Origin: a virus
Virus record (IMG/VR): IMGVR_UViG_3300000303_000014
Span: 1-63,482 of that record
Direction: 5' to 3' (one strand)
DNA: 63,482 nucleotides
The notes beneath the pieces are model-generated. The model searched no databases and was not told the origin of the DNA. It saw nothing but the letters and a program-made list of their open reading frames with translations. The position numbers and the translations under genes are program-made. Of the stretch, positions 2,707 to 61,300 are shown one piece after another; the stretch's first letter is position 1; every line of letters begins with the position of its first letter.

Positions 2707-2787
2707 TTAAACAGCCCTTGATACTTGGAATGGCTACTTTTGCATCAGGCGAGAGCCACTTCCAAGCATCATAAAAAACGAAACGAT

Positions 2788-5779: not shown

Positions 5780-5799
5780 AATGTTAAAGTATTAAATGT

Positions 5800-28798: not shown

Positions 28799-29269
28799 TC
28801 ACTTTATTTTTAGATTTTCTATTTCAATGAGCATATTCTTGATGTAATAGTCACAAGTGCAGTTTATCTTGCGTTTTCCTTTTCCTATAATTGTTTCGCA
28901 TCGAGACTTGCATTCCTTAAAGTCCTTTACGTAGTAAGTGCAGCTTTCAGGCGGTTGTATATCAGTATTAGGGATGCGGTCCAGCGAATAGAACACCTGT
29001 TTGTCGTAGATTTCGGCAGCGGCATTCTCCAAACGGCATCCTTTTGAGGTACGCCAATTTTCCATGAATAGGACGGCATCGCATTCCAGCAATGCTTCGA
29101 TGTCATTACCCATGTGTTCTGAGTAAGTTGCATCCGGATCTGGCGATATGTCAAGCGGCGACACAGGTGTGTGGCCTTTGGCTTGGATTACTCCGGAGGC
29201 GTATATGCAACTGGCTTCGACTTTTTCAATGTCGTGGCCGGTGATTGGGAGGCTGATATATATTTTCAT
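28799..29269 (-). CDS. DUF4406 / nucleoside 2-deoxyribosyltransferase-like protein with a Cys-rich C-terminal tail
   Basis: MKIYISLPITGH...VSPLD...ECDAVLFMENWRTSKGCRLENAAA matches the MKIYIxGPITG...CDxxxxLxxWxxSxGxxxE pattern of that family. Confidence 0.55.
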   Translation of the reverse strand: MKIYISLPITGHDIEKVEASCIYASGVIQAKGHTPVSPLDISPDPDATYSEHMGNDIEALLECDAVLFMENWRTSKGCRLENAAAEIYDKQVFYSLDRIPNTDIQPPESCTYYVKDFKECKSRCETIIGKGKRKINCTCDYYIKNMLIEIENLKIK

Positions 29270-29288
29270 CGTATTTTTGTATATAATT

Positions 29289-34492: not shown

Positions 34493-35224
34493 TCAATCCT
34501 GCTTAATGGTTCTGAAAGACGTTTCGTTACCAAAATCGACGATGCGCATCATTTCTCGGAAGCGGTCGGCAAACCGCTCATCGTAATACTGGCGTATCTC
34601 GTCGGCGGCGAGGTTGCTCGTGGCCATCGTGCAGAGTTGTTCCTCGTAGCGGTAATTGACCATATCCATTGCGGCGTTGACGTAATCACCGTAGCTGAGG
34701 CTATCGCGCGGCTCTGTGCCGAGGTCATCTATGCAGAGTACTTCCACATCGCGCAGACGCTTATAACGCCCGACATCGGAAGCGTTGTCACGAGTGCGGT
34801 TGTTGTAAGACTTGGCGAGCAAGACCAGTTCCTTGGCTGTGATTATCTCGAAGCCGTAGGAGGGGAAACGGTCTTCGCGTGTGCTGTATCCCTCATCGGA
34901 GTGAAGGTAATTGTAGAGCGACTTCATGGCCTTTACCAGCGTAGTCTTGCCGTTGCCCCGGTTGCCGCAGAGGAAGAGGCCAAAGGTGGTGTCATCGGAC
35001 GTGAGCCACCGGGCAATATCGGCAATATGATTCAAGTAAGCAGCGGAAGCCATAAACCGGCGATGACGCAACGCCACTTCGGACTTACAGGCTGCAAGCA
35101 GCATGACATATACCTGACGTTCGGTGTAAGGAAGCCTAAAACGAGCCACCATACGTTTTCTTCTCATCAGTGACGAGAAGATTTCCTTTACGTCTATTTC
35201 TTGATTCGGTTCTATTTTTAGCAT
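34493..35224 (-). CDS. DnaC/IstB-like AAA+ ATPase (helicase loader)
   Basis: It has Walker A (LCGNRGNGKTTL) and Walker B (VLCIDDLGTE). The start is uncertain: ATGs at 35224, 35167 and 35152 all overlap the upstream gene. Confidence 0.75.
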   Translation of the reverse strand: MLKIEPNQEIDVKEIFSSLMRRKRMVARFRLPYTERQVYVMLLAACKSEVALRHRRFMASAAYLNHIADIARWLTSDDTTFGLFLCGNRGNGKTTLVKAMKSLYNYLHSDEGYSTREDRFPSYGFEIITAKELVLLAKSYNNRTRDNASDVGRYKRLRDVEVLCIDDLGTEPRDSLSYGDYVNAAMDMVNYRYEEQLCTMATSNLAADEIRQYYDERFADRFREMMRIVDFGNETSFRTIKQD

Positions 35225-35939
35225 TGTTATTCTGTTTTGCGGCCACTATGCGCAGCCAGTTGTTAAAGTGTTGTTTGGCATCGGAGAGACTATCATGCCT
35301 TTCCTTGCCATCGGAAGCACAGTGAAGACGGAACTCATCGAGCTTGGCGCGTAACGCCTCCACATCCATGTGGTGGAGCACCTGAAGCTGGTCGAGCCAA
35401 GCCGTTTCATTTTTAAGCGCATCAATTTCCTGTTCGAGAGTCAATGAATACGGTTCAACCTTGCCCGGAGGAAAATTACCCACTTTGGCGGAAGTCCGTT
35501 TGGCCGGTTTTCTTTTCGGATGGGTGGCAGACTTTACGCTGTCATCGTCAGCGGTGATAAGATTATAAACCGTGACGGTAGCCACACGCTTGCAAAGACG
35601 GTTGATATTCATGTACCTTACCTGTATTCCTTTCGATGTCAACACGCTTTCGTCCTTGAACAGTTCCTTAGAGAACAACCCGATGTTCAGGCAGCACGTT
35701 ATGACCTCGCGTATATACGCCTCATCATACCCAGTCTGTTCCGAGATTATGAAGGGCAGCTCTTCATCCCACCTGATGTAGTACCCATCACGATAGATAA
35801 GACATAGCAGGAGAGCATATACGGTTATGGCCTTGCCACCTTGATACTTGATTAGTTTCCTAATGCGCAAGTCCTGAAAGAAGTCGATGTCGAAAGGGAA
35901 ATATCCCAAACCTTGCTTTGCTGTACGTGCCATATTCAT
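35136..35939 (-). CDS. Replication initiation protein with a Lin1244/Lin1753-like (DUF4373) N-terminal domain, DnaD-like
   Basis: The domain reads GLGYFPFDIDFFQDLRIRKLIKYQGGKAITVYALLLCLIYRDGYYIRWDEELPFIISEQTG...IGLFSKELF. Confidence 0.7.
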   Translation of the reverse strand: MNMARTAKQGLGYFPFDIDFFQDLRIRKLIKYQGGKAITVYALLLCLIYRDGYYIRWDEELPFIISEQTGYDEAYIREVITCCLNIGLFSKELFKDESVLTSKGIQVRYMNINRLCKRVATVTVYNLITADDDSVKSATHPKRKPAKRTSAKVGNFPPGKVEPYSLTLEQEIDALKNETAWLDQLQVLHHMDVEALRAKLDEFRLHCASDGKERHDSLSDAKQHFNNWLRIVAAKQNNNAKNRTESRNRRKGNLLVTDEKKTYGGSF

Positions 35940-43525: not shown

Positions 43526-43534
43526 AATTTGATT

Positions 43535-43912
43535 ATGAGAATAGAGCGGGTTAATATAGGTTTGGCAATCGAACAAAAAATAAACGAGCTTGGATTGTCA
43601 AAGTCTGAATTTGGCAGAAAGATTGGTATTCCTCAACAAAATGTGAATAGGATACTTGAGAAACCAAATATAGACACAGAAAAGTTAATCACGATAAGTG
43701 AAGCACTTGGATATAACTTCTTTGCGGATTATTCAGGTGACCATAATGCTGTTGCCAATGGTGACGGTTCTGTAGCCGTTAGTGGTAACAACAATAGTAA
43801 CGTAGTAGCTGGTGGGGAAACGGCTTTGCTTCAGGAGCGGATAAAGCATTTGGAGGAGTTGCTTGCTGAGAAGGAGAGGCTGATACAGGTGTTGATGGAG
43901 GGGAGGAAATGA
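43535..43912 (+). CDS. XRE-family HTH transcriptional regulator (CI/Cro-like repressor) with a C-terminal coiled coil
   Basis: The HTH reads LGLSKSEFGRKIGIPQQNVNRILEKPN. The C-terminal zipper reads LLQERIKHLEELLAEKERLIQVL. The ATG is at 43535; the listed 43529 start is TTG. Confidence 0.75.
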   Translation: MRIERVNIGLAIEQKINELGLSKSEFGRKIGIPQQNVNRILEKPNIDTEKLITISEALGYNFFADYSGDHNAVANGDGSVAVSGNNNSNVVAGGETALLQERIKHLEELLAEKERLIQVLMEGRK

Positions 43913-44972: not shown

Positions 44973-45108
44973 TTTAAATTATGATATAGACAAAATGAAT
45001 GTTGTCTAATTGTCGCTTGAAATTATATAAGTGACTGATAAAAAAGCATTCTTGGCTGCGGCGCAGGCGGCGGTAGAGGACGCTCAGTAATTAGCTGATT
45101 ATCAGAAA

Positions 45109-45151
45109 AATAGGCGGCAATTAGTTGTATTTCAACAGGTTGCCGCCTATT
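45109..45151. other. 12-bp perfect-stem hairpin in the int-proximal intergenic region
   Basis: aataggcggcaa (45109..45120) pairs with ttgccgcctatt (45140..45151), with a 19-nt loop. Confidence 0.6.
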
Positions 45152-45208
45152 GCTTTGTATAAGAGTATGTGCATTTTGGTACGGAAAATGTGCAGGATGA
45201 ACGCAAAT

Positions 45209-45259
45209 GTTGTACAAAAGTTGTACGTTTCCGACAACGCTGTTGTATGGGTGTTGTAC
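45209..45259 (+). repeat. Four phased GTTGTA(C/T) direct repeats plus one inverted copy upstream of int
   Basis: The copies start at 45209, 45220, 45242 and 45253, giving spacings of 11, 22 and 11 bp. An inverted acaac lies at 45234..45238. Confidence 0.6.
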
Positions 45260-45322
45260 AGGCGAAATCAGGCGGTTATCAGAGGTTAGCGGATTTTCAC
45301 ACCAAACAATTGGAACATAGAT

Positions 45323-46804
45323 ATGGCAACATTGAAAGCAGTAGTAAGAACGATGAGGGCTGACGGCTTCTATCCCGTCTACATACGTGTAACCCATCAC
45401 CGTGCATCAACGTTTATCAAGACGGACAAAATGGTGACCCGTAAGGAACTGACGAAATCGGGCGAGATTAAAGACCCGTTCGTGCTGCAATTCTGCACGC
45501 AGCGCATCTTGGAGTACAACGAGAAGCTGAACAAGGCGGACATTGGGAATTGGACGGCGAAGGAGGTGGCGGAGTTTCTGACCAAGGAAAGCGAGGACGT
45601 CTGTTTCTCGGATTATGCACGTAAGCACATAGACCGCATGATTGACCGGGGACAACAACGCAACGCACGGAACTACGAACTGGCGTTGCAGCACATGGAA
45701 CGGTTTGCAGGCACGACGAGGATTATGTTCTCGCATCTTACTTCCAACTTTGTGGCCCGGTGGATACAGTCGTTGGAACAGACGCACAGGGCTAAGGAGA
45801 TGTACCCCATTTGCATGAGGCAGGTGTTCAAGGCGGCGCAACTTGAGATAAACGACTACGACAACGGCATCATCCGCATCAAGACGAATCCGTGGGTGAA
45901 GGTGCAGATACCGAAAGCAGACAGGACGGAGAAACTGGCGATAACGCCGGAGGCTTGCCGGGAGTTCTTCTCGTTCCCTTTGCCGGAGAGCAAGATGAAG
46001 CTGCCGCTCATGGAGCTTGGCCGGGACGTGGCGATGATGGTGCTTTGCCTTGCCGGGATCAACACGGTTGACCTGTTCAACCTGCGCAGGGAGGACTACC
46101 ACGGAGGCATCATACACTACCAGCGGGCGAAAACGAAGAAGTTCAGGGCGGACGGTGCGTATATGGAAATGCGTGTTCCGGCCATCATCCTGCCGCTGTT
46201 CGAGAAGTATGCCAACAAGAACGAGAATGACGAGCACCTGTTTGACTTCTACAGCCGCCACACTTCGTATGACAGCTTCAGTGCGAACGTGAACGGTGGC
46301 ATACGTCAGGTGTGCGAGGCGATGGGGATGTCAAAGGACGAGGACTATTCATCGTACACGTTCCGGCACACATGGGGCACGGTGGCGCAGAACGATTGCG
46401 GAGCGTCCATCAGCGAGGTGGCGTTCGCGATGAACCACAGTAGCGGCCACAAGGTGACACGAGGCTACATAAAACTGGACTTCACCCCGGCATGGGAGTT
46501 GAACGAGAAGGTGGTGGACTTCATTTTCTTTTCCGACAAGCCGTCTGTACGCGAACGCAAGGAAGAAGAGCCGCATTTCCGCTTGTCGTACCGTTACCAA
46601 GTGCATGGCACGGCGTTCTTTCAGGGGAAAAAGGTTGCAGAGGTGATAGACACCGGATTTGACAACGTGGACGAGGTTATCAGGAAACTGGCCGGGCAAC
46701 TGCCTGATGACATCCCGGCACGTTCGATGGTGATGTTCAGGATAGAGAACGTTGACAAGGGGCAGACGGTGGTTTACCAGCGGATGAAGGGGAAAGGATT
46801 TTAA
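45323..46804 (+). CDS. int: Tyrosine recombinase (phage integrase) with a Bacteroidetes-type N-terminal arm-binding domain
   Basis: YQRAKTKK contains the catalytic Arg/Lys region. YTFRHTWGT is the HxxR-type box. MNHSSGHKVTRGYI supplies His and the catalytic Tyr. The N-terminus is LKAVVRTMRADGFYPVYIRVTHHR. Confidence 0.85.
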   Translation: MATLKAVVRTMRADGFYPVYIRVTHHRASTFIKTDKMVTRKELTKSGEIKDPFVLQFCTQRILEYNEKLNKADIGNWTAKEVAEFLTKESEDVCFSDYARKHIDRMIDRGQQRNARNYELALQHMERFAGTTRIMFSHLTSNFVARWIQSLEQTHRAKEMYPICMRQVFKAAQLEINDYDNGIIRIKTNPWVKVQIPKADRTEKLAITPEACREFFSFPLPESKMKLPLMELGRDVAMMVLCLAGINTVDLFNLRREDYHGGIIHYQRAKTKKFRADGAYMEMRVPAIILPLFEKYANKNENDEHLFDFYSRHTSYDSFSANVNGGIRQVCEAMGMSKDEDYSSYTFRHTWGTVAQNDCGASISEVAFAMNHSSGHKVTRGYIKLDFTPAWELNEKVVDFIFFSDKPSVRERKEEEPHFRLSYRYQVHGTAFFQGKKVAEVIDTGFDNVDEVIRKLAGQLPDDIPARSMVMFRIENVDKGQTVVYQRMKGKGF

Positions 46805-46832
46805 TCCTCATATTGTGGTTTATATTTTTAAG

Positions 46833-46880
46833 CCCACAGGGAAAGCGTGTCTTTCTTTGTGGGTTTTCTTTTGTTTTTTG
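46833..46880 (+). terminator. Rho-independent terminator of int
   Basis: A 13-bp stem (cccacagggaaag / ctttctttgtggg, including two G-U pairs) with a 5-nt loop, followed by ttttcttttgttttttg. Confidence 0.7.
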
Positions 46881-46928
46881 AGCCTTTACGCACACGCGCT
46901 ACGCGCGCGATGGAGAAGAAGTAGAAGG

Positions 46929-46952
46929 GAAATATATATACTTATATATTTC
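46929..46952. repeat. AT-rich palindrome gaaatatata-tact-tatatatttc
   Basis: 10-bp inverted arms made almost entirely of A/T, preceded by a GC-rich tract (cgcacacgcgctacgcgcgcg). Confidence 0.6.
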
Positions 46953-46972
46953 TTCTCTTTTCTTTGTTCCCC

Positions 46973-47071
46973 AAATTCCGAAGAAAAGGGCATTTCTTCG
47001 GAAGATATACGCATTTCTTCGGAAGAAATAACAATAACTTCGGAAGAAAAGCCTATTTCTTCGGAAGAAAT
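46973..47071 (+). repeat. Iteron array A: five copies of ATTTCTTCGGAAGAAAT-like 17-mers phased at 21 bp
   Basis: The motif centres lie at 46978, 46999, 47020, 47041 and 47062. Each motif is an 8-bp inverted repeat around a single central base. Confidence 0.85.
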
Positions 47072-47133
47072 AAAGCGGTTCTTAGACCTGATTTTTGCCC
47101 TAAAAACGGCCTTTTCCGCCCTGTTTTTGCGTA

Positions 47134-47231
47134 TGTTCTGAAGAAAAAGCCATTTCTTCGGAAAGAATACGTATTTCTTCGGAAGAAATGAGTATAACTT
47201 CGGAAGAAATACCCTTTTCTTACGAAGAAAT
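47134..47231 (+). repeat. Iteron array B: five more copies of the same 17-mer phased at 21 bp
   Basis: The motif centres lie at 47138, 47159, 47180, 47201 and 47222. Array B is a direct repeat of array A offset by 160 bp. Confidence 0.85.
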
Positions 47232-47267: not shown

Positions 47268-47303
47268 TTAAAAAGGCGATGCCCGGAATGTTCAGGCACC
47301 GCC
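47268..47303 (-). terminator. Rho-independent terminator of the 47364..47654 gene
   Basis: On the - strand, ggcggtgcc-tgaacattccg-ggcatcgcc (one mismatch in the stem) is followed by tttttaatt. Confidence 0.55.
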
Positions 47304-47363: not shown

Positions 47364-47654
47364 CTAATCTTCGTCCGAACTTTCATCGGAGGAGAGGGCG
47401 AGAAGTTTATCCTCGATGGTCTTACGTGTTTCCACCGTGGCATCTATGGTCGTAGATTGCATCTTAGGGGCGACATATTGCGTGAGCCGTTCCATAATCA
47501 TTACACGTTCTTTCGGTTCAAGAGCGGCTAAGTCTTTAAAGAAATTCTCGCTGTTGTAATAATCACTGGTGGCTTCGGCAAGACATTCACGAATGGTTCT
47601 TGTCGTTTTGTTGGGTGTTCCCTTTGTTCGTCCTCCTGTTTTCTTTCCTCTCAT
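47364..47654 (-). CDS. Small protein with a basic GGRxKGxxNK N-terminus and an acidic tail. It may be a DNA-binding protein or a terminase small-subunit-like protein.
   Basis: A 96-aa ORF from ATG 47654 (MRGKKTGGRTKGTPNKTTRTIRE...). The C-terminus is SSDESSDED. Confidence 0.6.
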   Translation of the reverse strand: MRGKKTGGRTKGTPNKTTRTIRECLAEATSDYYNSENFFKDLAALEPKERVMIMERLTQYVAPKMQSTTIDATVETRKTIEDKLLALSSDESSDED

Positions 47655-47713: not shown

Positions 47714-48214
47714 ATGATAAGTTTTAACAGATATATGGGATTAATAGGCAGTGCATTAGGAGCCGTCGGCAGTATCTTCGGCGGCATATCGGCATCGAAA
47801 GCGATGAAGAAGGCGAAGAAGAACGTAGAGCAGCAGATTCAGAAGAATCAGGACTGGTACGACCGGAGGTATAACGAGGATGCCACGCAGAGGGCAGACG
47901 CGCAACGCATCCTGACGATGACGGAGGAGAGCATAAAGAACCGCAACCGCCAGGCGGCAGGAACTCAGGCCGTCATGGGTGGCACTGACGAGAGCACGGC
48001 GGCGGCGAAAGCGGCCAACAACCAAGCATTGGCAGACGCAACGGCGCAGATTGCCGTGAACGGAGAGCAGAGGAAAGACCAGATAGAGCAGCAATACCTG
48101 CAACGTGACGCAGACTTGCAGAACCAGTTGCAGCAACTTGAAATAGGCAAGGCACAGGCCATATCGGGAGCCGTGCAGGGTGTAACACAGGCGGCTTCGC
48201 AGTTGCCGTTCTAA
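47714..48214 (+). CDS. Glycine-zipper membrane or internal virion protein (hypothetical)
   Basis: GLIGSALGAVGSIFGGISAS at the N-terminus is followed by a Q/A-rich helical region. It is the first gene of the operon containing the giant ORF. Confidence 0.65.
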   Translation: MISFNRYMGLIGSALGAVGSIFGGISASKAMKKAKKNVEQQIQKNQDWYDRRYNEDATQRADAQRILTMTEESIKNRNRQAAGTQAVMGGTDESTAAAKAANNQALADATAQIAVNGEQRKDQIEQQYLQRDADLQNQLQQLEIGKAQAISGAVQGVTQAASQLPF

Positions 48215-49297: not shown

Positions 49298-49304
49298 CAG
49301 CATT

Positions 49305-52300
49305 ATGCCAAACAAGATAACATACACCATTACCACCTCGGACGGCAAAAGCCACCAAGTAAGCGAGGAAAACATTAACAAGTACGGTATGCAGTCGTAT
49401 GCGTCCGCATACAAGGGCGCAACCATCCGTATGCGCGACAAGGACGGCGCGGACTATGACATACCGCTGGGCAACTATGACGACGCACAGCGTCAGGGAT
49501 TGCACCCGTTCCGTTTCAATCATACCCCGGACAATACAGACATCCGACAGGAACGTGAGCCGCAAGAAACGCAGAATACACAGACGCAGGAGCAAAAGCC
49601 GTGGAAACCGACGGCGCAGCAGAGAGCCGTTATGACGGCCAACTTGGAGGGAATCAGCCGTTCGGCACAGCGCACAATGGAAGACTTCAACGAGCGCATG
49701 GACAACTTGCAGGAATACGGCAAGCGTTTCGGAGGCGGTCAGACGGTGAGCGGCGGTTTACGGTTCAATCCCGGCACCAAGAAGATGGAGCGCACCTACC
49801 TCACCCCAACCGGCGACCGCACTTTCAACAAGGGGGCAGCGGATAAGGTGAGCCGTGAATACAGGGAAGCCGTGGACACGACCGTCGGAGGACAAATACG
49901 CCGTGCGCAGCGCAGACTTGAGGAATTGCAGGAAAAGGCACGCCAACGCCAGCAGGAGATACACGACAAATGGGAGCAGGACTACACGAACAACAAAGCT
50001 CCGCTTGCAGCCGTGCTTGCTGCTGACACCTACGTTCCCTCGTTCGACAGCGACCAGACTTATAGAGCCTTGCAAGTGGCCATCCGTCAGACGCAAGAGC
50101 AGCTAAAGACCCTGCAAGAGCAGCAAGACCGTGACAACGGTGTGGACGTGGGCTTTTGGCGCGGCTTCGGACGTGCCGCAGGCGACATCCGTTCGTGGGA
50201 CTTCGGCATTGGCGACATGAAGGACGCACTGACCATGCTACGTGCATCGGATGACAAACACGGTCTGCCACCGACAGATCAGGAAAAGGAAGCCAATCAG
50301 GAAATGTTGAAGGCCATACACGAGAACCAGCAGACGGAAGCCATGTATGGAGGCAACGCCAGCTTTTGGAACAGGGCGGGCATGATGACCGGCTACATGC
50401 CCTCGTTCATGGTGGACTTCGCACTAACCGGCGGAGGCTTCGAGGGCATCAACTTGGCCACGAGAGCGGCAGGGAAAGCGGCCACCAAGATGTTGGGCAA
50501 GGAAGCAGTCAAGGAAATGGCCGAACAGGGATTCAAGATGTATGTGAAACGCAACGGCCTGAAAGGTCTTGGTCAGGAAGCCGCCAACTGGACGGTGAAG
50601 GCTTTGGGAACAACGGCCGACGAACTGCTGATACGTGCCCCGCTGATGACCAACACCGTGCAACTGGGCGACACGGCAGCTGACATCATAGACCGCAAGC
50701 TCGGCGACGTGGAGGTTGACGAGAACGGGAACTACGATTTCACCAATGACAAAACTTGGGGCAGTGCCGTTTGGCAGGGAGAAGCCAATTCCATTATTGA
50801 GAATTATTCTGAAATGTTCGGTACGCACTTGCCCGAAGCGGCATCGCTGGAAAACCTCGGCAGACTGGCCAACGTGATAGGCGCAAAGCGGTTGAGCGGC
50901 GTGTTGTCACGAGCCAATGCAGGAGCGTTGGGCGGAATAACGGACACCACACGCAGGATATTCGGGCAAATGGGCGTGAGCGACTATCTGGGCGAGGTGT
51001 CGGAGGAATACTACGGCCAGTTGTGGCGCACTATGCTCAACCTTGATGACGCATACCAGCAGAACGCCGACGGCACACGCACCAACCTGTTTGCCACCGG
51101 GCAGTTCCACGGCGACATTTGGGGAGGCATGGCCTTGTCGATGGGATTGATGGGCGCAGGAAAGGCCACGTTGAGCGGTGCCAATTACTTGGCTATGAAG
51201 CACGACGTGAACAAGGCAGACGCACGGGCAGGCGAGCTTCTTACTCCCGAAATATGGGAGCCGCTGCGCAGCACCATAGACATGGCCACCAACGACAACG
51301 TGGGCGACGTGGCCGAAACCATCATTAACGATAAGGAACTGACCAATGAGGAGAAAGCAGCCGTGATGAACTATATGGAGCGGTCGCTGTATCTCCGTGG
51401 GGCGAACCTTTCCGAGCTGGTAAACTCCCGTGGCGGTGTACAGGACGAGAGGAAGCAACAGGCCAACGACAGCTACATTGACGGCTACAACGCACAATCG
51501 GGCGAGGAAATGCAGGATGCCCGGAACATGTACGAATTGCAGCGGCAGAAAGCGGAACAAGCGTTATCTCCCGAAATGCTTGCGGAGATAGACGCAGACC
51601 CGATTGGCGCATTGCAAGACCTTGTGGATGATTCGGAAGCCGGTCAGACCGCCATTGACTATATCAACGCCAAACAGGTGTATGACGGCATGATACAGCG
51701 TGTGCGCGATGACATTGACAGCCGCATCGACCAAAGCAACGCGATGATAGACAGCCGTGTGAACCGTGCAAGCGGCATGATACAGGGCGCAACGATGAAA
51801 GTTCAGAACGATGATGGAAAAGACAGGCGCGTGTATGTGCTGGACGGCAATCTTGCCACATTGCCTGACGGCGCGGGCATTGACCATGAGAACTCGGACG
51901 GAAGCATCATCATACGTGATGCGGATACGGGCGCAATAGAAATGGTTTCTCCCGATGCCATATTCAGCGTTGAGCAGCCTATTGACCCTGAAACGGAGAA
52001 GATGACGGCAGCGGAAGCCATCCGCCAGCAGTTCGCAGCGGAAGCGGCTGGACGTATAGACGGTGTTGTGGCGTTCAATCCGGGCGACACGTACACCTTG
52101 ACCGATGAGAACGGTCAGGCGGTACAGATACAGATTATGGCCAACCAAGACGGACTTGTCGATAACGGTGACGGCACGGTGAACGTAAGTTCAGACGGCG
52201 GACAGACCATTGTTCCCATGTCAAAAGAGGACATTCAGGCAATGGTGGACGCCACCAACAGGGCGAGAGTGGCTCGGTTGGAAGAGGAACGCGGGACAAT

Positions 52301-55300
52301 ACGGACACAACAGCCAACGTACAGCCTGAATGAAGAAATCACCATTACGGACGAGAACGGAAACACCGTGAGAGGAAGCATCACCGCAGATGCCAACGAG
52401 GACGGCCAATATGAGGTCTATACGGAAGCACCTATAAACGGCAGGAAAGTAAACCTGTTTACGGCAGAGGAGCTTGACAGGCTCCGGGCTGTTTCTGATG
52501 AAAATTTTCAGCAGAACGGAGAGGGAGCCATGGAAAACGGCAACAATGGTGCTGAAAATATTCCGCAGAATGGCAACATTGAGCCGCAAAATATTCCAGC
52601 ACCAACAGAAACCTTGCAAGTTGACGGGGAAACCTTGCAAGAAAACTTGCAAGCCGGTACCGATGGAGCATCGGCTCTCGAACGAATCCCGAAAGACGAG
52701 CAGGGGCAACCACTGTATGAGCAGGCCGACCCTGAAACGGCGTGGGATGCCATCGTTGAGCAAACGGAAGGTGACGAGGCTATGGCACAGAGCGTGGCCG
52801 ACAGCATGGTAGCCGATAAGGAAGCCGAATTGAAGAAGATTGAGAAGGTGAAGCCAAAAACCGGAACGACCATTGCAGAGAAGATTGCGGCCGAGCGTGA
52901 GCGGAAGAACGCCGTGGAACAGGCTAAAGCCAACCTTGCCTTGTGGCAGAAGATAGCGCAGACCTCCCAGCGCAGGAAGCAAGCCGCACTTGCCGAACAG
53001 TCGAAAGCAGCCGAGGAAGCCGCACGGCTTCGCCGGGCAGAGGAAGAAAAGCTCCGTGCCGAGCGTGAGGAAGCCGAACGCATACGCAGGGAGGCATTGA
53101 ACGGTGTGCCCGATTTCGTGGAAGATACGCCGCAGGACGCAAGGGCGAGAGGCTTCCGCAGGGTAAACGGCAACAAGGTTGACCGCCAACAGGCCATACC
53201 GACAAGGCAGGGCAACGAGGTTCAGGTGAAGTTTGATGACAACAACATACCAACCGGGCATGTCAGCCTGATTGACGCATCACAGTTGCAGCCGAGCCAC
53301 ATCAACGGACAGCGCAACCCCCTGCACTTCATTGACGAGGCGCAACCCAAAGAGCGCAATGACGAGGCAAGCGTCATGTCGGCACGTAAGATTGCGGCCA
53401 ACATACGCCCGGAGGAGATCACCTCGTCCGTTACGGCTTACACTGGCGCACCCACGGTGAACACGCGCGGCGAGGTGATACAAGGAAACAACCGCAGTGC
53501 GGCTTTGCGTGAAATGTGGGCGGAGCATCCCGAACAGGCGACGAAGTACAAGCAATACCTGACGGAACACGCCGCAGACTTCGGACTGGCACCCGAAGAT
53601 GTGGAAGCTATGCAGCAGCCTGTGCTGGTGAATATGGTAGACGTACCTGACGATGAAGCCATCAGCCTTGGACAGTTCGTTGCGCAGGACACCGAGAGCG
53701 GTGGAACAGAGCGCATCAAGCCGAAAAACATCGTTCAGAAAATGGGCGATGATATGAAAGGCTTTGCCGGACGGTTGCTTGCCTCGCCCGATGAGGAAAT
53801 GACATTCTCTGAATTGGTGGACCGCAATGGCATGGACGTATTGAAGTGGATGCAGGCAAAGAATTACATCACCCCAACACAGTACCGTAGCGCGTTCGAC
53901 AGCAAAGGCAATCTTACCGGCGAGGCCAAGAATGACCTTAAAGGCATAATGTATCAGAGTATTTTCCAAAATGGAAACACCCATTTGGAGGAAATGTTCG
54001 GCGCATTGCCTGCAAAGGCGCAGAAAGCGATACTGGCTACGGCGTACAGGGACTATGACAGCCCGAACTCTGAGCGCATGAACGCCGAACTGCAAGCTTC
54101 GATAAACGCATACTACGCCTTGTCGCAAATGCCCGACTTTGCAAATGCCAAGAACTACAAGGAGGCACGCAAGGCGGCAGAGGCATGGAAAAGGCAACTG
54201 TCTTTTGACGATGTTACCGGCGAAAGCTATCTTCCTTCAGAAAGATACAGTAACTTTGCGCTGTTGTTGGCCACAATGTACAAAGGGCAGACGCAAGTAT
54301 TCATACAGAATACACTGAAAAACATCTTTGACCTTGTACAAGGCACGAAAGAGGCTACCCTTTTTGAAGAGCCTAACAACACGCCGCGCACACTGGTAGA
54401 GGCTGTGAACGAGACGATGAACGGCCTTAGTGACGAATTATTGTTAAACGAGAATTTTATATACAATGGACAACGGAGAAATAATGTATTGGCTGGCGGT
54501 AGTGCAGCAGGCCAACAAGGGAGACAAGGAAGCGGTGGAGGTACTCCGTCAGGAGAACGAGTTGAGGGCGGAGACGGCACAGCCGACCGTCCAGGAGGAA
54601 CTGGAAGCGGTAGCACAGAGGAAGAAATAGAACGCCGTGAAGCGGAACTGGCTTCACGAGTAGAGGTAAGTGATGATGACTGGCAAGAGGGAGACAATGA
54701 AAAGCCGACCTACAAACGGAGCATCCTCATTGACGGCAAACATACCGCCACGCAAGTGGACCAACCCGACAAGGACGGTCATTATACCGGTTCCTATTTC
54801 GAGTTTGACAACAAGCGGTTTGGCGACATTGCCGAAATCGTCGATTACATAGACAGCGGCCATACGCTCGCCTCGAAGATTGCCCAAGCGGAAGCGGAAA
54901 CCGATACGGAGCCTACCGAAGCTCAGAAAGAGGCGGGCAATTACAAGAAAGGCCATGTGCGCATCGGTCAGTTCGACATCACCGTAGAGAATCCGAAAGG
55001 AAGTGTGCGCCGTGGAACGGATGCCAGCGGCAAAGCGTGGGAACAGACGATGCAGAACACCTACGGCTACATCCGTGGCACGGAAGGCGTGGACGGCGAC
55101 CATATCGACGTGTTCCTGACGAACGACATAGACGGCTGGAACGGCAGACGTGTTTATATCATTGACCAGTACAACGAGGACGGTACGTTTGACGAGCACA
55201 AGGTGATGCTGGGGTTCAACGATGAGGCAGACGCACAGGACGCTTATCTTTCCAACTATGAAAAGGGCTGGAGCTTCAAGCACAAGCTCGTCCTGTCCTC

Positions 55301-58300
55301 GGTCAACCTACCCGACTTCGAGAATTGGATTAACAGCAGCCACAGAAAGACAAAGCCGTTTGCGGAATACAAGAGCGTGAATAAGGCGGATGTGTCCAAT
55401 GAGCCGAATGTGCCGGAGGCTGGATTTGAGATTGCACCTGCACAGTACACCACAAAGCGTGGCAAGGTGCTTGACATGTTCCTTGTGACCTTCGCAGAAC
55501 CATTGAGCAAAGAACAACAACGGGCGGCAAGGGAACTTGCAAAGGCAGAAAAAGGCTGGTATGACCGCGACAAGGGAGGCTTCATGATGCGCAGCGAGGA
55601 AAGTGCATGTAAGTTGGCCGACACAATAACCGGCAACGAAGAAGCCGTGAGCGACGCACAACCGTTGTCGCTTGCAGACACCCGGAAGTTGGAAGAGCCT
55701 GTGATGAGGCAGGTGGATGTTGAGGGACTGATGCAGGAGATACACGAGAAGGGTGAAGCCAAGCTGAGCGACCATTTTGTGCCACAATCGGAACAGAACG
55801 AGGGAACAACACCGGATGCGGATAAAGTAGTGGATGACTTTCGTGATTCTACCTTTGGAAAGGGAATGAGTATTGAAGACTATTTGGAGACCGTTTCAGA
55901 TGTAGCACTCGATGTGTTAGAGGAAGCATATAAAGATAACAACAACATAACAGCAGCCATCGAGCAGGAGAAGTGGTTCAGAAAAAACAATGCACGAAGA
56001 GACACAAAACCGCAGCAAGTGAACATTGAGGGTTTGGTTGACGACCTGCGCGAGAGCGGGGAAGCCAAGCTGAGCGACCATTTTGTACCACAACCGGAAC
56101 AGAAAGAGGAAAACTATACGCAAAAAACAGAAAATTCGGAACAGGAAGAGGGAAACGCTTACGGTGCGAGCAACAAACTCGTTAGTCGTGAGCGATACGA
56201 GCAACTGAAAGCAAGGATGCGTAATAAGCTCGGCGGTCAGTTGAACATGGGCATTGACCCTGAAATACTGGCCATCGGTACGGAAATGGCCGCATACCAC
56301 ATTGAAGCCGGAGCGAGGAAGTTTGCCGACTATGCCACGCACATGATTGCAGATTTGGGCGATGCCATACGTCCTTATCTCAAATCGTTCTATAATGGCG
56401 CGAGGGATTTGCCCGAAGTACAGGAATCCGGCCTTGCTGGTGAAATGACCGCGTATGACGAAGTGCGCACGTTTGACGTGGCAAACTTCGACAAAGGACA
56501 TTCGGACGCTTTGGCCACCGCTGAAATGGTGGTGCAAGAGCAGGAAGCGGACAAACAGGCGGACGAAGCCAAGGAGAAACTAATCAACCAACGTAATGAA
56601 CAAAGGAGAAAAGAAGATGAACAGACAACAGCAGATACGACAGCTATTGCAAGCAAAGCAGAGGCTGTTGCAAGCAAAGCAGAAAGCGACATCGAAGCTG
56701 CAGCAACTGAGCAGCAAGTAAACAATGCCGTCGAAAGCATAGACAAGCAACTTGAAGAAGTCAACAAGCAGCTTGCGTTGCTCGGTTATTATGAGGCAGA
56801 GCCGGTTGAGAGCGACTTTAACGAGGCATACGGCTACATGCGCAATGCCGAGAAGAAAGCCGTTAAGGACGCGAACAACCTTGCCAAACGCCTTGTGAAC
56901 GATTTGGGCATTGACCCGAATAAGATTGTCGATAAGAAAGGCAAGAAGCGAAGGAGCATAGCCACGGCGAACATCGCCCCGGCAGGAGGCGAAATTTCCA
57001 TTTATCTGCCCTTGTCAAGTGAAGCCAACCTTTATCTGTCAATAGGTTTGGCACCCACATACGATCGAAAAGCCTCGACACCGTTAATAAACAGAGGCAA
57101 AGGCGGACGTTGGGAAGGTGACAATCTTGAAGTGGAACACATCATGTACCGTATTGAGCAGCCAAATTCAAACGGCAGTGAACGATATGGAAGTAACAAC
57201 TTTGCAGATACGGATGTGACTTATTCTGATTTACTGAAAGACATACGGAGAATATCTAAAAAGTATCTTCCCATAAAAGAGGAAGCAAAAGAGGAAAGCG
57301 GAGAGAAAAACAAGCCGAAAGATGCTAAGAATAAGAAAAAATCAGTATCTTCGCAAACGCAGGTAGCCGATTTGTTCGGAGGGCTGTTTGAGGAAAATGC
57401 AAGCACGGAAACCGTTGCGAGCCAAGGCAACGAACTTAACCGAAAATTCGCAATGACGGTTAAGGATGACATGCTTGCAGCCCTTGACAATGGCACGAAG
57501 CCGTATCGGAGCATATTGGACTTGCGCAAACGTGCAAGCGGTCTTGGCATGGAAGTGGACAATGACGGGCGCACCGACATCCTGCTTCAGGAGCTTGTGG
57601 AGGACGGATTGGTGAGAGCTGCCCGTGAAGTGGCGGAACGTCACGGCAGCGACAGCAGGGAAACCTACGACCTTATCTGCAAACTGTATGAAATGCAGCC
57701 CACCATTGCCGCACGGAGCAGCAACCGCATCAAGATGCAGCAATACTCCACCCCATTGCCCATGGCATGGAACGCGTCCAGATTCGTCATGACCGGGAAG
57801 AAAGACGGGAAAGTGCTGGAGCCGACAGCCGGAAACGGTATGTTGGTATTCGCCATACCGGCAGGACAAGTACACGCCAACGAACTTGACGGCACACGGT
57901 TGGCCAACCTGCGCGAACAAGGCTTTGCACAGGTGACGCAGCAGGATGCCACAGAGCCGTTCGAGGGTGGAGAGCAGTATGACGTGGTGATAGCCAATCC
58001 TCCTTTTGGGAGGCGGGAAGCCGTGGACTATGACGGAAAGCTGATAAGCGGTCTTGACCCACAGATAACGCTCAATGCTCTTGCCAGCATGAAAGATGAC
58101 GGACGTGCGGCCATCATCATTGGCGGAAATATGGGATATGGTGCCAATGGAGCCATAAACAATATGAAGCCTTTCTTCACTTACCTGTACGACCACTACA
58201 ATGTGAAAGGCGTGGTGGATATGGACGGGAGCCTGTATGCCAAGCAGGGTACGACCTATCCCACTCGAATGATACTGATAGACGGACGGAGAAGTGATGA

Positions 58301-61300
58301 GGAACGGGCGCAGAGTGCCGTATATCCGCCTGTGCAAAGCAAGGCCATCCGTAAGGCTGACAGCTTTGAAGCACTTTATGACATCATTGACGAAGTAATC
58401 AACTCAAAGGACAAGACAAATGGAACAGAAATTTTACGTAGCCAGCAAGGGCAACTCGTATCTGTCACTGACAAACCATCCCGGAACACTGACGGAAAGG
58501 GACATCGTGAACAACCTCGAACGAATGATGACGCTCGAAGCAGAGGAAGAGAGCGAAGAAATAAACCCGAAAACAATTCAGGAAGAAGCCAACAGGTTTT
58601 ACCAAGAGAACGTAGAGAGGATAATCGAAATGGTGAAACCCGGAACGAAGTTAGTGGAAATACCGCAGGAGGAAGCCGAGGAGTATCAGAACCTGACGTT
58701 CAGAGAGTGGGAGCAGTGGGAGCTTCCACGGAACGAGTGGGATTAATCCCCCAAAGGACAACAGAACAACCGAAGAAACGCACCCTTACAGAAGAAAAGA
58801 GTGCGTATAGGCCACACAACAGTGCTTTTTCCCTGCAAAGCGTAGCCCCTGCCGCCATGGTGGAGGCAATGGACCGTGTGCTGTCACAAATCGAAGAAAA
58901 GCATGGGAGCATAGATGAATTTGTCAGAAAAGAACTTGGCTATGATACGATAGATGAAGCTCATCAAGCCCTTGCCGCAGAACAAATAGACAGCGTGGCA
59001 ATGGCCATTTATCAGATGAAGCAAGGCCAAGCACTTATCATCGGTGACCAAACAGGCGTGGGAAAAGGCCGTCAGATGGCCGCACTTATCCGTTGGGCTG
59101 TAAAACGTGGAGAAAAGCCCATATTCATTACCCAAAAAGCAGACCTGTTTTCCGATATTTACCGTGATTTAGTAGATATAGGCAGCGGCGACCTTGTTCC
59201 TTTCATTTTCAATTCGGACGGAGCAATGGTTGACAGTAACGGAAATACAGTACACAAGCCTCTCTCATCCAAAGAAATGGCAAAAGTATTTGCCACAGGG
59301 GTATTGCCTGATGAATATGATTTTGCCGTCCTTACCTATTCGCAAGTGAACACTGGCGATGAAGTAAGCCAAAAGGAAATGGAGGAAGCCGCCAAAAAGA
59401 ACGGTGCCCGTTCAAAGAAAAGCAAGAACGTAAAAAGCGGGAAAGCCACTCCCAAAGCTACCTTCTTACGTGCCATTGCCGAGGACAACTACCTGTTTCT
59501 TGACGAGAGCCACACCGCAGCAGGTTCGAGCAATACTGGCGCATACTTGCAAAGCATCCTCCGCAGTGCGAAAGCGGCCACATTCGCCAGTGCGACTTTC
59601 GCCAAGCGCCCTGACACCATGCCCCTATACGCCATACGGACGGCCATGAGCCAAGCCAAGGTTGAACCCGACAAGCTGATAAGCATCATCGAGAAAGGCG
59701 GCGTGACCTTGCAGGAGATTATGAGCCGCGAGCTTACCAATGCCGGGCAGATGGTACGCAGGGAGCGTGACATGAGCGATGTCGTGACCGATTGGAAAAC
59801 CATAAACGACCCTGAAACCGTCAGGCGAGCAAGAGAGAACTACGACCGTACGATTGCTGCATTCAACGCCATTATCAAATTCCAGGAGGATTATGTCAAG
59901 CCGATGGTTGACGCAATGGATAAGGAGCTTGCGGTGATGGCAGAGAGTGCGGGTATTAAGAGGGGTACGGATAAAATGGGTGTAGAGAACGTTCCGTTTG
60001 CCAGCAAGACCTACAACTACACCAAGCAACTTATGCTTGCCCTTAAAGTGGATGCCATAGCCAATGAAGTGGATGCTGAAATAAAGGCTGGCAGACATCC
60101 GGTCATTGCGTTGGAAAGTACGATGGAAAGCAGTATCAAGGACTATTCCGCAGGAGAAGTCATTGCAGAGCCTACCTTCAGCGCAAGTTTGCTTAGAGGT
60201 CTTGACACCGTGATGCAATATACCATCAAGGACGAGAACGGAAAAGAACAGCATGCGCGTTACTCTCCTAAGCAGTTAGGTTCAGCCGGGGAGAAAGCCT
60301 ACTATGAATTGCAGGACTTCATCCGTGAGAGCACCAGCGACATTTTCATCAGTCCACTTGATGCCATTATTGAACGGTTGCACGATATGGGGTATAAGGT
60401 CGGTGAGCTGACCGGACGCAACTTGTACGTGGAGCGTGACAGTGAAGGCCGTGTAGTGGTGAAACGCAGGACAGACAAAGACAAAAAGAGGATGCAGCGC
60501 GAGTTCAACAATGGTGAGCTTGACGTGCTCATCCTCAACAAGTCCGCCTCGACCGGCATCAGCCTGCACGCATCTGAGAAGTTCAGCGACCAGCGTCAGC
60601 GGACGATGATCATCGCCCAGCCACTCAGCGACATCAACGACTATATGCAGATGATTGGCCGTATAGACCGCACAGGACAGGTACATAGGGGATATTATAT
60701 CAACCTCGGTTTGCCTGTACCGGCAGAAAACCGTTTTCTGATGATGCTGTCCACCAAGCTGAAATCGCTGAATGCCAACACAACCACCTCACAGGACAGC
60801 GAAAGCAACGAAGTGGAAGCTCCCGACCTTCTGAACAAATACGGTAGCCAAGTGGTTGTGGAATACCTGCGTGACAATCCTGACATATACGATAAGATGG
60901 GCACACCTTTGAAAAAAGGAGGGGAAGGCGGCGGACGTGTGCAAACCAGCGAGCTTGACGAGTATAAACCGCAAGAGGATGACGCACGTAAGATTACCGG
61001 TTACGTTGCTTTGCTGACCACTCAAGAGCAGGAAGAATTTTATGATGATGTGGTAAGGCGGTATAATGAACTCATCAAGTACCTGAACGACACGGGGAAC
61101 AATGATTTGAAGATAACCGTCATGCCGCTACGTGCCAAGACGTTGGAAAAACGTGTGTCATCTGAAGGAATAGACCCGACCGGTGCCAACCCCTTTGCAC
61201 AAAACTCATACGTTGAGCAGGTTGAAATGGATGTGTTGCGCAAGCCGATGAAAGCAGCCGAGATACGCAAGACTATTGAACAGGTCAATAAAGGGAAACG

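What the first reader, a model, noticed from the sequence alone, without database searches (positions are those of the whole stretch)
46973..47231. Two direct arrays of five palindromic 17-mers with exact 21-bp phasing
The motif ATTTCTTC-G-GAAGAAAT has 8-bp inverted arms and occurs with minor variants ten times. The centres are at 46978, 46999, 47020, 47041 and 47062, and again at 47138, 47159, 47180, 47201 and 47222. That makes two 5 x 21-bp arrays in direct orientation, offset by 160 bp. They lie in the roughly 560-bp convergent gap between int and the small basic-protein gene.

Two helical turns per site puts all sites on one DNA face, as expected for cooperative binding by a dimeric protein. 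The candidate roles I cannot separate are:
- replication-origin iterons
- a pac or terminase small-subunit recognition site
- recombination directionality or arm sites of attP
- a plasmid-prophage centromere

The ORFs predicted across the arrays (with ISSEE repeats) are artefacts.
Basis: seen in the sequence. Interest (0 to 1): 0.7.

Follow-up and report, generated by a model that had tools for sequence, protein, structure and literature searches.

The report
Replication origin of a Bacteroides prophage
The ten phased palindromes are most likely the binding sites (iterons) of this gut-Bacteroides phage's own replication initiator, so they mark its origin of replication, an ordinary kind of element that had not been mapped for this phage family.

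Summary
There are two direct 5 x 21-bp arrays of ATTTCTTC-N-GAAGAAAT at 46971-47071 and 47131-47231. Eight units are good palindromes and two are half-sites. They sit between the convergent terminators of int and a small gene.

The window is a ~63-kb temperate Bacteroides phage related to BS-TP4 and BKO1-TP3. Comparison with relatives points to replication-origin iterons for the phage's Lin1244_N/DUF4373 initiator (35136-35939, minus strand), which is followed by a DnaC-like loader.
- In other phages with a 61-94% identical initiator N-domain, the same palindromes lie inside the initiator gene, at 21-bp phasing, followed by an A-rich tract, as in lambda O.
- In 26 genomes the palindromes are either in the gene (5) or next to int (21), never both or neither.
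- Initiators with a divergent N-domain carry different in-gene palindromes.
- The second least stable 40-mer of the window abuts array A, and its sequence is homologous to the A-rich tract of the in-gene origins.

attP is excluded: it maps upstream of int, at the 3' end of host ppdK. pac, centromere and small-protein operator readings fit poorly. No binding or replication experiment exists. I class it as a new member of a known kind, of moderate interest.

The parts
46830..46866 (+). Terminator-like hairpin plus T-run that ends int. It forms the left boundary of the module.
   Evidence: Conserved in relatives (alignment A1).
46888..46909 (.). Alternating purine/pyrimidine GC-rich tract (ACGCACACGCGCTACGCGCGCG). 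It belongs to the conserved backbone of the origin.
   Evidence: Read. Equivalent tracts precede the arrays in relatives whatever their iteron type.
46910..46970 (.). Purine-rich plus (TA)n AT-rich tract, the candidate DNA-unwinding element. Positions 46930-46969 are the least stable part.
   Evidence: 46930-46969 is the second least stable 40-mer of the 63.5-kb window (dG -39.5 against a mean of -55.5, sd 4.1). Its reverse complement aligns with the ACAAAGTAAAGTAAAG tract that follows in-gene iterons (A3).
46971..47071 (.). Array A: five 17-bp dyad-symmetric iterons at 21-bp phasing. Unit starts are 46971, 46992, 47013, 47034 and 47055. The first unit is a half-site.
   Evidence: Cores are invariant and the 4-bp linkers vary among relatives (A1; position weight matrix (PWM)).
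47072..47130 (.). Spacer between the arrays, with T/A runs and an invariant CCCTGTTTTT (47119-47128). Its role is unknown; it could be a second melting or loading zone, or a bend.
   Evidence: A1. Two-cluster layouts with spacers also occur for other iteron types.
47131..47231 (.). Array B: five iterons at 21-bp phasing. Unit starts are 47131, 47152, 47173, 47194 and 47215. The first unit is a half-site. The array is a direct duplicate of array A at an offset of 160 bp.
47275..47303 (-). Terminator-like hairpin that ends the small gene 47364-47654(-). It forms the right boundary of the module.
   Evidence: Conserved in A1.
35136..35939 (-). Replication initiator: a Lin1244_N/DUF4373 N-domain, a disordered linker and a DUF7833 C-domain. 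It is the inferred iteron-binding protein and has no iterons inside its own gene.
   Evidence: Pfam PF14297 E=1.2e-25 and PF25200. PHROGs 'replication initiation protein', 'replisome organizer' and 'O-like'. N-domain 65% identical to an initiator with in-gene iterons. No repeats in the gene. AF2 model: residues 17-115 at pLDDT >90, residues 131-163 disordered.
34493..35224 (-). DnaC-like helicase loader, immediately downstream of the initiator. The pair is arranged like lambda O-P or SPP1 gp38-gp39.
   Evidence: PHROG phrog_50, E=7e-27. The same gene order is annotated in BS-TP4.

Best explanation
The two arrays are the iterons of the phage's origin of replication.

Proposed mechanism:
1. Dimers of the phage initiator (35136-35939, minus strand; Lin1244_N/DUF4373 N-domain) bind each 17-bp palindrome.
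2. The spacing of two helical turns puts the dimers on one face of the DNA, so they form a cooperative, DNA-bending complex.
3. That complex destabilises the adjacent AT-rich tract (46930-46969).
4. The neighbouring DnaC-like loader (34493-35224, minus strand) then brings in the host replicative helicase.

In many related initiator genes the same origin module (iterons plus an A-rich tract) lies inside the gene, in the part that codes for the linker, as in lambda O. In this phage lineage the module sits instead in the terminator-bounded gap next to int, and it has been duplicated into two arrays.

Shown here by sequence comparison:
- the repeat anatomy and its phasing;
- the exclusive association of the palindrome with Lin1244_N initiators;
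- the either/or placement of the palindromes;
- the covariation of iteron sequence with the initiator N-domain;
- the homology of the flanking A-rich element;
- the low duplex stability of that element.

Inferred only: physical binding, dimer stoichiometry, the site of melting, and that replication actually starts here.
For: - 47 loci are this same gap between int and the gene for the 166-aa protein (47714-48214) in relatives of the window.
   - 55 loci lie in or beside a Lin1244_N gene. In 35 of these, two or more copies sit less than 150 bp downstream of the N-domain.
   - 2 loci are at the edges of the stored stretch, and 15 are singletons at about the chance level.
   -.
2. **Either/or placement.**
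   - BKO1-TP3 (int about 70% identical at the DNA level) has no array next to int. Instead it carries ATTTCTTCCGAAGATAA and ATTTCTTCCGAAGAAAA, followed by an A-rich tract, inside its initiator gene gp19.
   - Across 26 genomes where both loci could be read, 21 have arrays next to int and none in the gene. These include the window, BS-TP4 and 19 IMG/VR contigs.
   - The other 5 have iterons in the gene and none next to int. No genome has both or neither.
3. **Covariation.**
   - All initiators linked to this palindrome share 61-94% identity over the N-domain.
   - The initiator of locus L385 has a C-domain like that of BKO1-TP3 gp19, but an N-domain only 37-45% identical. It carries three in-gene AATGYnnACATT palindromes at exactly 21-bp spacing, then an A-rich tract.
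   - More distant homologues carry further variants, always ahead of AAAGTAAAG-type tracts: AATGTAAACATT x3 at 21 bp, TTAATGTTGACATTAA, and GGCACCGAAAACCCCGTTAAA x3 at 21 bp.
4. **Shared backbone.** The junction between array and AT-rich tract (AAACTCCG..ACAAAGTAAAGTA) aligns between in-gene origins and origins next to int, even where the iterons differ. Other relatives hold other palindromes in the same gap on the same GC-alternating/AT-rich backbone.
5. **Unwinding element.** 46930-46969 is the second least stable 40-mer of the window.
6. **Phasing.** In 103 distinct arrays, all 393 spacings of 70 bp or less are 21, 31-32, 41-42, 52 or 62-65 bp. The mean resultant length at a 10.5-bp period is 0.977. 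Palindrome cores are near-invariant and the linkers are free to vary.
7. **The initiator.** It matches PHROG replication-initiation, replisome-organizer and O-like families, and a DnaC-like loader follows it. There is no other iteron cluster anywhere in the window.
8. **Precedent.** SPP1 gp38 binds repeats plus an AT-rich unwinding element both inside gene 38 (oriL) and at a distant intergenic site (oriR) (PMC6316719).
Against: - There is no experimental evidence of binding or of replication initiation for any member of this initiator family. Literature searches for DUF4373, Lin1244 and Bacteroides phage iterons found nothing relevant.
- The either/or table is phylogenetically shallow on one side. 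The 5 genomes with in-gene iterons have 98-100% identical initiators, so they amount to one lineage.
- For the other palindrome types found in the gap next to int, I could not retrieve the matching initiators. Covariation is therefore shown only for in-gene origins.
- The fold search of the initiator model gave only weak matches to winged-helix domains (E >= 0.09).
- Arrays A and B are offset by 160 bp, or 15.2 helical turns, so they are not in phase with each other. The role of the duplication and of the conserved spacer remains unexplained.
- SPP1 oriR shows that a distant initiator-binding site need not be the site where replication starts.
Confidence: 0.8

Rival explanations
1. The arrays bind the initiator but are not where replication starts. 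They could act as a control or fork-arrest locus. Possible roles are titration or handcuffing of the initiator, as in P1 incA or P4 crr, or a barrier that triggers the switch from theta to sigma replication, as proposed for SPP1 oriR.
For: - The same association with the initiator as in the main explanation.
- The two arrays are duplicated and out of phase with each other.
- SPP1 oriR is proposed to stall forks (PMC6316719).
Against: - The window has no other iteron cluster that could serve as the true origin.
- The arrays carry the same AT-rich, AAAGTAAAG-type element as the in-gene origins.
- The either/or placement implies that the two locations are functionally equivalent.
Confidence: 0.1
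2. The arrays are an operator or recognition site for the adjacent small basic protein (47364-47654, minus strand). That protein could be a regulator, an excision factor or a small terminase-like protein, in which case the arrays would be a pac site.
For: - The small gene is adjacent to the arrays in every relative.
- Its N-terminus is basic.
- Two clusters of repeats flanking a spacer recall the P1 and SPP1 pac layouts (from my own knowledge).
Against: - Homologues of the small protein are present both with and without arrays. Examples without arrays are BKO1-TP3 and loci L287, L289 and L301-L303, where the gap holds no palindrome.
- The protein matches only PHROGs of unknown function and no Pfam family.
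- The large terminase gene is at 5800-8022, more than 20 kb away.
- This reading does not explain why the same palindromes sit inside initiator genes of unrelated phages.
Confidence: 0.04
3. The arrays are arm-type or directionality-factor sites of attP for the adjacent tyrosine integrase.
For: They lie next to int. The integrase belongs to a Bacteroidetes type whose members typically have an arm-binding N-domain (Pfam SAM-like domain; the arm-binding domain is from my own knowledge).
Against: - In integrated prophages on large bacterial contigs, int, the arrays, the small gene and the gene for the 166-aa protein (47714-48214) remain contiguous. These include B. congonensis, P. massiliensis and P. 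amnii.
- The host gene ppdK ends directly upstream of int.
- The window carries the ppdK-3'-like core at 45054 and separate arm-type direct repeats, GTTGTA(C), at 45209-45259. These repeats change with lineage.
- The arrays are about 1.9 kb from that core.
- BKO1-TP3 has an integrase but no arrays.
Confidence: 0.02
4. The arrays are a plasmid-type centromere, like R1 parC (2 x 5 repeats) or F sopC, for a prophage maintained as a plasmid.
For: The 2 x 5 layout of repeats in direct orientation resembles R1 parC (from my own knowledge). The arrays consist of phased dimer-binding sites.
Against: - No ParA, ParM, ParB or ParR gene is annotated in BKO1-TP3 or BS-TP4. None was seen among the window proteins I scanned.
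- The phage integrates into the chromosome.
- The palindromes track the replication initiator.
Confidence: 0.02

Closest known systems
Phage lambda ori / O protein, and lambdoid phages generally
   Same: - The iterons are dyad-symmetric and bound by dimers of a phage initiator.
- They are followed by an A/T-rich unwinding tract.
- In relatives of the window (BKO1-TP3 gp19, L107 and others) the iterons lie inside the initiator gene, in the segment that codes for the linker between the N- and C-domains.
- Iteron sequence covaries with the N-domain.
- The initiator gene is followed by a helicase-loader gene.
- PHROG 'replication initiation O-like' is a weak match (E=1e-6).

The lambda facts come from established knowledge.
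   Different: - In the window the iterons are not inside the initiator gene. They lie about 11 kb away, next to int.
- There are 2 x 5 sites rather than one set of four.
- The protein family is Lin1244_N/DUF4373, not Pfam Phage_rep_O.
Bacillus phage SPP1 oriL/oriR and gp38 (replisome organizer), gp39 loader
   Same: - One initiator binds repeat-plus-AT-rich modules at two kinds of location: inside its own gene (oriL) and at a distant intergenic site (oriR).
- A helicase-loader gene is adjacent (PMC6316719).
- PHROG 'replisome organizer' is a match.
   Different: - SPP1 has both sites in one genome. Here each genome has one or the other.
- The SPP1 repeats are direct boxes, not 17-bp palindromes.
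- SPP1 encodes its own helicase. I did not identify a DnaB-type helicase gene in the window (only an SNF2-family helicase gene).
Satellite phage P4 ori and crr (alpha protein) and P1 oriR/incA
   Same: The initiator-binding repeats are organised as duplicated blocks. P4 crr consists of two direct ~120-bp repeats, each with several alpha-binding sites. Iteron sets also occur outside the initiator gene. These facts come from my own knowledge.
   Different: - The initiator families are different.
- In P4 and P1 the second iteron set acts together with a separate origin. Here no second set exists in the genome.
Plasmid R1 parC centromere
   Same: Only the architecture is shared: ten repeats in two clusters of five flanking a short central region, bound cooperatively on one face of the DNA (from my own knowledge).
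   Different: - parC has 11-bp direct repeats that flank the parMR promoter and are bound by ParR.
- Here there are no partition genes, the sites are 17-bp palindromes at 21-bp spacing, and they associate with a replication initiator.

Membership tests
Iteron-type phage replication origin (lambda ori, SPP1 oriL/oriR) | Several repeated binding sites in a fixed helical register | tested here: met
   There are 2 x 5 units at exactly 21 bp. Spacings are quantised in 10.5-bp steps across 103 arrays.
Iteron-type phage replication origin (lambda ori, SPP1 oriL/oriR) | An adjacent A/T-rich DNA-unwinding element | tested here: met
   46930-46969 is the second least stable 40-mer of the window. It is homologous to the A-rich tract that follows in-gene iterons. 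Actual melting was not tested.
Iteron-type phage replication origin (lambda ori, SPP1 oriL/oriR) | A phage-encoded origin-binding initiator, with a helicase loader | tested here: met
   The Lin1244_N initiator at 35136-35939(-) and the DnaC-like loader at 34493-35224(-).
Iteron-type phage replication origin (lambda ori, SPP1 oriL/oriR) | Iteron sequence covaries with the initiator's DNA-binding domain | tested here: met
   N-domains that are 61-94% identical go with TTCTTCSGAAGAA. N-domains that are 37-45% identical go with AATGYnnACATT, and further variants exist. This was not testable for the other iteron types found next to int.
Iteron-type phage replication origin (lambda ori, SPP1 oriL/oriR) | The initiator physically binds the repeats, and replication starts there | not testable with these tools
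   This needs EMSA or footprinting, a plasmid replication assay, and marker-frequency or 2D-gel mapping.
Lambdoid 'origin inside the initiator gene' arrangement | The iterons lie within the linker-coding part of the initiator gene | tested here: not met
   The window's initiator gene has no iterons. The feature is met in BKO1-TP3 gp19, L107 and more than 60 other loci.
attP of a tyrosine integrase | The site contains the crossover core and is split into attL and attR on integration, with arm sites within about 150 bp of the core | tested here: not met
   The arrays stay intact and contiguous with int in integrated prophages. The core-like sequence is at 45054 and the arm repeats at 45209-45259, about 1.9 kb away.
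pac site / small-terminase recognition site | Present in all relatives that can package DNA, usually in or near the terminase genes, and the point where packaging series start | tested here: not met
   The arrays are absent from this gap in BKO1-TP3 and in at least 16 related contigs. The large terminase gene is at 5800-8022. Virion termini cannot be tested here.
Plasmid centromere (parC/parS/sopC) | Linked genes for a partition NTPase and a centromere-binding adaptor | tested here: not met
   None is annotated in BKO1-TP3 or BS-TP4, and none appeared among the scanned window proteins. Not every window ORF was scanned.

The most novel reading that the evidence does not exclude
The module next to int is a portable origin cassette. 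It has a conserved backbone (a GC-alternating tract, an AT-rich AAAGTAAAG-type tract and a spacer) onto which lineage-specific iterons are swapped together with the initiator N-domain. The cassette has moved between the initiator gene and the int-proximal end of the prophage.

Its two-array form may be a distinct origin architecture. The arrays could be paired or handcuffed around a conserved spacer. Because the origin lies about 2 kb from attL, it could fire in situ before excision and amplify host DNA flanking ppdK, in the manner of lateral transduction.
Probability: 0.15. Interest if true: 0.7.

Novelty: new member of a known kind. Interest (0 to 1): 0.45.

Why it matters
**An origin for an uncharacterised family.** The finding gives a concrete, testable origin and initiator pair for a widespread family of temperate Bacteroidales phages. 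BS-TP4, a relative, was detected in 31% of 930 Chinese gut viromes (PMC12694917). It also assigns a likely DNA target to the uncharacterised DUF4373/Lin1244_N domain. More than 1,200 homologues were found.

**Practical uses.**
- A minimal origin plus initiator could seed new replicons or phagemids for Bacteroides.
- The different iteron types suggest replication specificity (incompatibility) groups among gut prophages.
- Annotation pipelines could stop calling ISSEE-repeat ORFs across these arrays.

**Evolution.** The data show one origin module living either inside its initiator gene or as a free-standing duplicated cassette, with the iterons exchanged on a conserved backbone.

Tried and rejected
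- **GC skew.** It follows the direction of transcription and gave no usable origin signal.
- **tRNA genes as att sites.** None were found. The att site turned out to be the 3' end of ppdK.
- **Sequence search of the initiator against the PDB.** No hit.
- **AlphaFold model plus Foldseek against the PDB.** The N-domain is modelled confidently, but only weak matches appeared (E >= 0.09), mostly to winged-helix DNA-binding domains. I treat this as inconclusive and do not use it as evidence.
- **Pfam and PHROGs for the small protein.** Only families of unknown function.
- **Scan for a second palindrome type, AACCCCWTAGGGGTT.** It found many more two-cluster arrays next to int, but none inside an initiator gene in the DNA I could retrieve. 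The initiators of those contigs could not be fetched, because the tools return only the best 80 relatives and fixed flanks.
- **Search with the L385-type N-domain.** It did not hit any contig for which I also held the int region. It did supply further in-gene iteron variants.
- **Sigma-70 promoter scan of the gap.** Nothing above the shuffle expectation. I looked by eye for a Bacteroides-type promoter (-33/-7) in the spacer and found nothing convincing.
- **Literature searches.** No prior description of this origin.

Full report
**1. The observation**

The region 46971-47231 holds ten units of the 17-mer ATTTCTTC-N-GAAGAAAT. They form two arrays of five with exactly 21 bp between unit starts (46971, 46992, 47013, 47034, 47055 and 47131, 47152, 47173, 47194, 47215). 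The arrays are offset by exactly 160 bp.

Three units are perfect and five have 1-3 mismatches. The first unit of each array keeps only the right half-site (6 and 4 mismatches). The two 97-bp blocks are 84% identical and match unit by unit, so they are a direct duplication.

The 13-mer core with up to 2 mismatches occurs 16 times counting both strands, against 1.7 expected from shuffles. Thirteen of these matches lie in the arrays. The arrays are the top-scoring tandem repeats of the window. They lie in the 559-bp gap between int (45323-46804, plus strand) and a small gene (47364-47654, minus strand). More precisely, they sit between the two convergent terminator-like hairpins at 46830-46866 and 47303-47275.

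**2. What the window is**

The window is a temperate Bacteroides phage of about 63 kb. The sequence is circularly permuted and cut inside a giant DarB-like gene. It is related to Bacteroides phages BS-TP4 and BKO1-TP3.

The main genes are:
- portal, 2725-4761;
- large terminase, 5800-8022;
- a recombination and replication block on the minus strand, with RecT, an exonuclease, NinB, an SNF2 helicase and a VRR-NUC-like protein;
- a Lin1244_N/DUF4373 initiator at 35136-35939, followed directly by a DnaC-like loader at 34493-35224;
- an HTH repressor at 43529-43912.

**3. The key comparison**

BS-TP4 has related arrays in the same gap. BKO1-TP3 has only about 150 bp there and no arrays.

I scanned 2.9 million viral contigs for the exact 17-mer and kept 119 loci. 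They fall into two groups.
- In relatives of the window, the arrays are always between int and the small gene and the gene for the 166-aa protein (47714-48214).
- In other phages, three or so palindromes at 21-bp spacing, followed by an A-rich tract, lie inside a gene.

That gene encodes a Lin1244_N protein (Pfam E=1e-23). Its N-terminal 139 residues are 65% identical to the window's initiator. The iterons occupy the part of the gene that encodes an ISSEE-type linker.

The full tally of the 119 loci is:
- 47 in the int gap;
- 55 in or beside a Lin1244_N gene, of which 35 have two or more copies within 150 bp downstream of the N-domain;
- 2 at the edges of the stored stretch;
- 15 isolated single matches, about what chance predicts.

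**4. Either/or placement**

BKO1-TP3's initiator gp19 carries the iterons and the A-rich tract inside the gene. The initiators of the window and of BS-TP4 do not.

I retrieved initiator loci and loci for the 166-aa protein gene with int from the same contigs. That gave 26 genomes with both regions.
- 21 have arrays next to int and no in-gene iterons.
- 5 have in-gene iterons and an empty int gap.
- None has both or neither.

One caveat applies. The five in-gene cases have 98-100% identical initiators and count as one lineage. The 21 cases span several initiator lineages, 56-80% identical to the window.

**5. Covariation and a family-wide rule**

N-domains of all initiators associated with this palindrome are 61-94% identical to one another. 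The initiator of locus L385 has a C-domain like that of BKO1-TP3 gp19, but its N-domain is only 37-45% identical. It carries three different palindromes (AATGTGCACATT, AATGTAAACATT, AATGCAGACATT) with centres exactly 21 bp apart, again followed by an A-rich tract.

More distant homologues show further variants in the same position, each ahead of an AAAGTAAAG-type tract:
- AATGTAAACATT x3 at 21 bp;
- TTAATGTTGACATTAA x2;
- ATTAATGCTGACATTAAT;
- GGCACCGAAAACCCCGTTAAA x3 at 21 bp.

The AlphaFold model of the window's initiator has a confident N-domain (residues 17-115, pLDDT >90) and a disordered linker (131-163). That linker corresponds to the segment encoded by the iterons in the in-gene type.

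**6. The module next to int is homologous to the in-gene origin**

Read on the minus strand, the window runs from the arrays into AACAAAGAAAAGAGAAGAAATATATAAGTATATATATTT and then into an alternating GC tract. The junction motif (AAACTCCG..ACAAAGTAAAGTA) aligns between in-gene origins and origins next to int. It does so even in relatives whose int gap holds different palindromes.

Those relatives keep the same backbone: a GC-alternating tract, then GTAGATGTAGTAGATATATATACTTTACTTTAC. Their iterons differ:
- ATAATTGTGCAATTAT;
- TTCCGGAA-type;
- ATTCTTCCGGAATAAT;
- AACCCCWTAGGGGTT.

These are mostly arranged as two clusters around a spacer. In the window, 46930-46969 is the second least stable 40-mer of all 63.5 kb, as expected for an unwinding element.

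**7. Signs of selection and phasing**

Among close relatives the palindrome cores are invariant, while the 4-bp linkers and the number of units vary (position weight matrix (PWM)).

Over 103 distinct arrays, every one of 393 neighbour spacings of 70 bp or less is 21, 31-32, 41-42, 52 or 62-65 bp. These are whole helical turns. The mean resultant length at a 10.5-bp period is 0.977.

**8. Rivals**

- **attP.** Integrated relatives on large bacterial contigs keep int, the arrays, the small gene and the 166-aa protein gene contiguous. Directly upstream of int they have the 3' end of the host pyruvate phosphate dikinase gene, ppdK. The window carries the corresponding core-like sequence at 45054 and separate arm-type repeats, GTTGTA(C), at 45209-45259. 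These repeats change with lineage. The attP reading is therefore rejected.
- **pac.** Arrays are absent from packaging-competent relatives, and the terminase gene is far away.
- **Small-protein operator.** The small protein is present with or without arrays and has no informative family match.
- **Centromere.** There are no partition genes in the annotated relatives, and the phage integrates.
- **Initiator-binding control or fork-arrest site.** This remains possible, by analogy with SPP1 oriR. It is disfavoured because the genome has no other iteron set and because the arrays carry the unwinding element.

**9. Comparison with known systems**

The in-gene form is lambda-like: dyad iterons plus an A/T-rich tract in the linker-coding part of the initiator gene, with a loader gene next door. 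The window's form is closest to SPP1 oriR, an initiator-binding repeat-plus-unwinding module at a distant intergenic site (PMC6316719). It also resembles the duplicated P4 crr blocks. The resemblance to R1 parC is architectural only.

The window's element fails the 'origin inside the gene' feature. It meets the other sequence-level features of an iteron origin. Binding and initiation remain untested.

**10. Verdict**

The best explanation, at about 0.8 confidence, is the phage's replication origin: iterons for the Lin1244_N/DUF4373 initiator, relocated from the initiator gene to the int-proximal gap and duplicated.

It is a new member of a known kind. Its interest is moderate. It assigns a DNA target and an origin to an uncharacterised initiator family that is common in gut Bacteroidales phages. 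It also shows an origin cassette that alternates between in-gene and free-standing forms, with exchangeable iterons.

Noticed in passing
window 45054-45260: This looks like the phage's attP. A core-like copy of the 3' end of host ppdK (GGCTGCGGCGCAGGC...) starts at 45054, followed by a conserved hairpin. Arm-type direct repeats GTTGTA(C) lie at 45209, 45220, 45242 and 45253. Relatives are integrated at the 3' end of the pyruvate phosphate dikinase gene. Their arm repeats differ by lineage (TGTTTAGAG, GTTTCCC, CTTACAGTA, TGTAGAG).
   Followed up: partly
window ~49300-63482 and 43-2706: A giant ORF runs off the end of the window and continues at its start. Its C-terminal 887 aa match PHROG phrog_14770 and a DarB-like antirestriction family. 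The window is therefore a circular permutation cut inside this gene. The relatives annotate it as a gene of about 16 kb.
   Followed up: partly
L002 (BS-TP4) 5640-6065: The BS-TP4-type origin interleaves a second palindrome (AATTGTACATTTAT / TGTACA type) with the TTCCGAA-type iterons, at spacings of 42/21/31/42...146...42/52/21 bp. It may be a composite origin, or it may contain sites for a second protein.
   Followed up: no
L322 1944-2300; L335 2644-2994; L344 2629-2990; L280 1938-2320; L318 1885-2031: Other relatives carry quite different repeat sets in the same gap between int and the small gene: ATAATTGTGCAATTAT, TTCCGGAA/TTCCCGAA, ATTCTTCCGGAATAAT, AACCCCWTAGGGGTT, and TGCATAGTTTG direct repeats. 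They usually form two clusters on the same GC-alternating/AT-rich backbone. I could not retrieve their initiators.
   Followed up: partly
window 47072-47130: The spacer between the arrays contains an invariant CCCTGTTTTT (47119-47128) and conserved T/A runs among relatives. BS-TP4 has a similar CTGATTTTCGCATAAAAAA. The function is unknown. I recognised no convincing promoter or DnaA box.
   Followed up: no
window 46888-46909: An alternating purine-pyrimidine GC tract (ACGCACACGCGCTACGCGCGCG) is conserved beside the AT-rich tract in all origin variants. It is potentially prone to forming Z-DNA under supercoiling.
   Followed up: no
window 29254-29305: The least stable 40-mer of the window (29254-29293) overlaps a 23-bp tandem repeat (29257-29305) at the start of a DNA methyltransferase gene (29289-30449, minus strand). 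I did not examine it further.
   Followed up: no
L564 1930-1992: A distant Lin1244_N initiator carries three direct, non-palindromic 21-bp repeats (GGCACCGAAAACCCCGTTAAA) in its linker-coding segment, followed by AATTAAATTAAAT repeats. This suggests a different binding mode within the same family.
   Followed up: no
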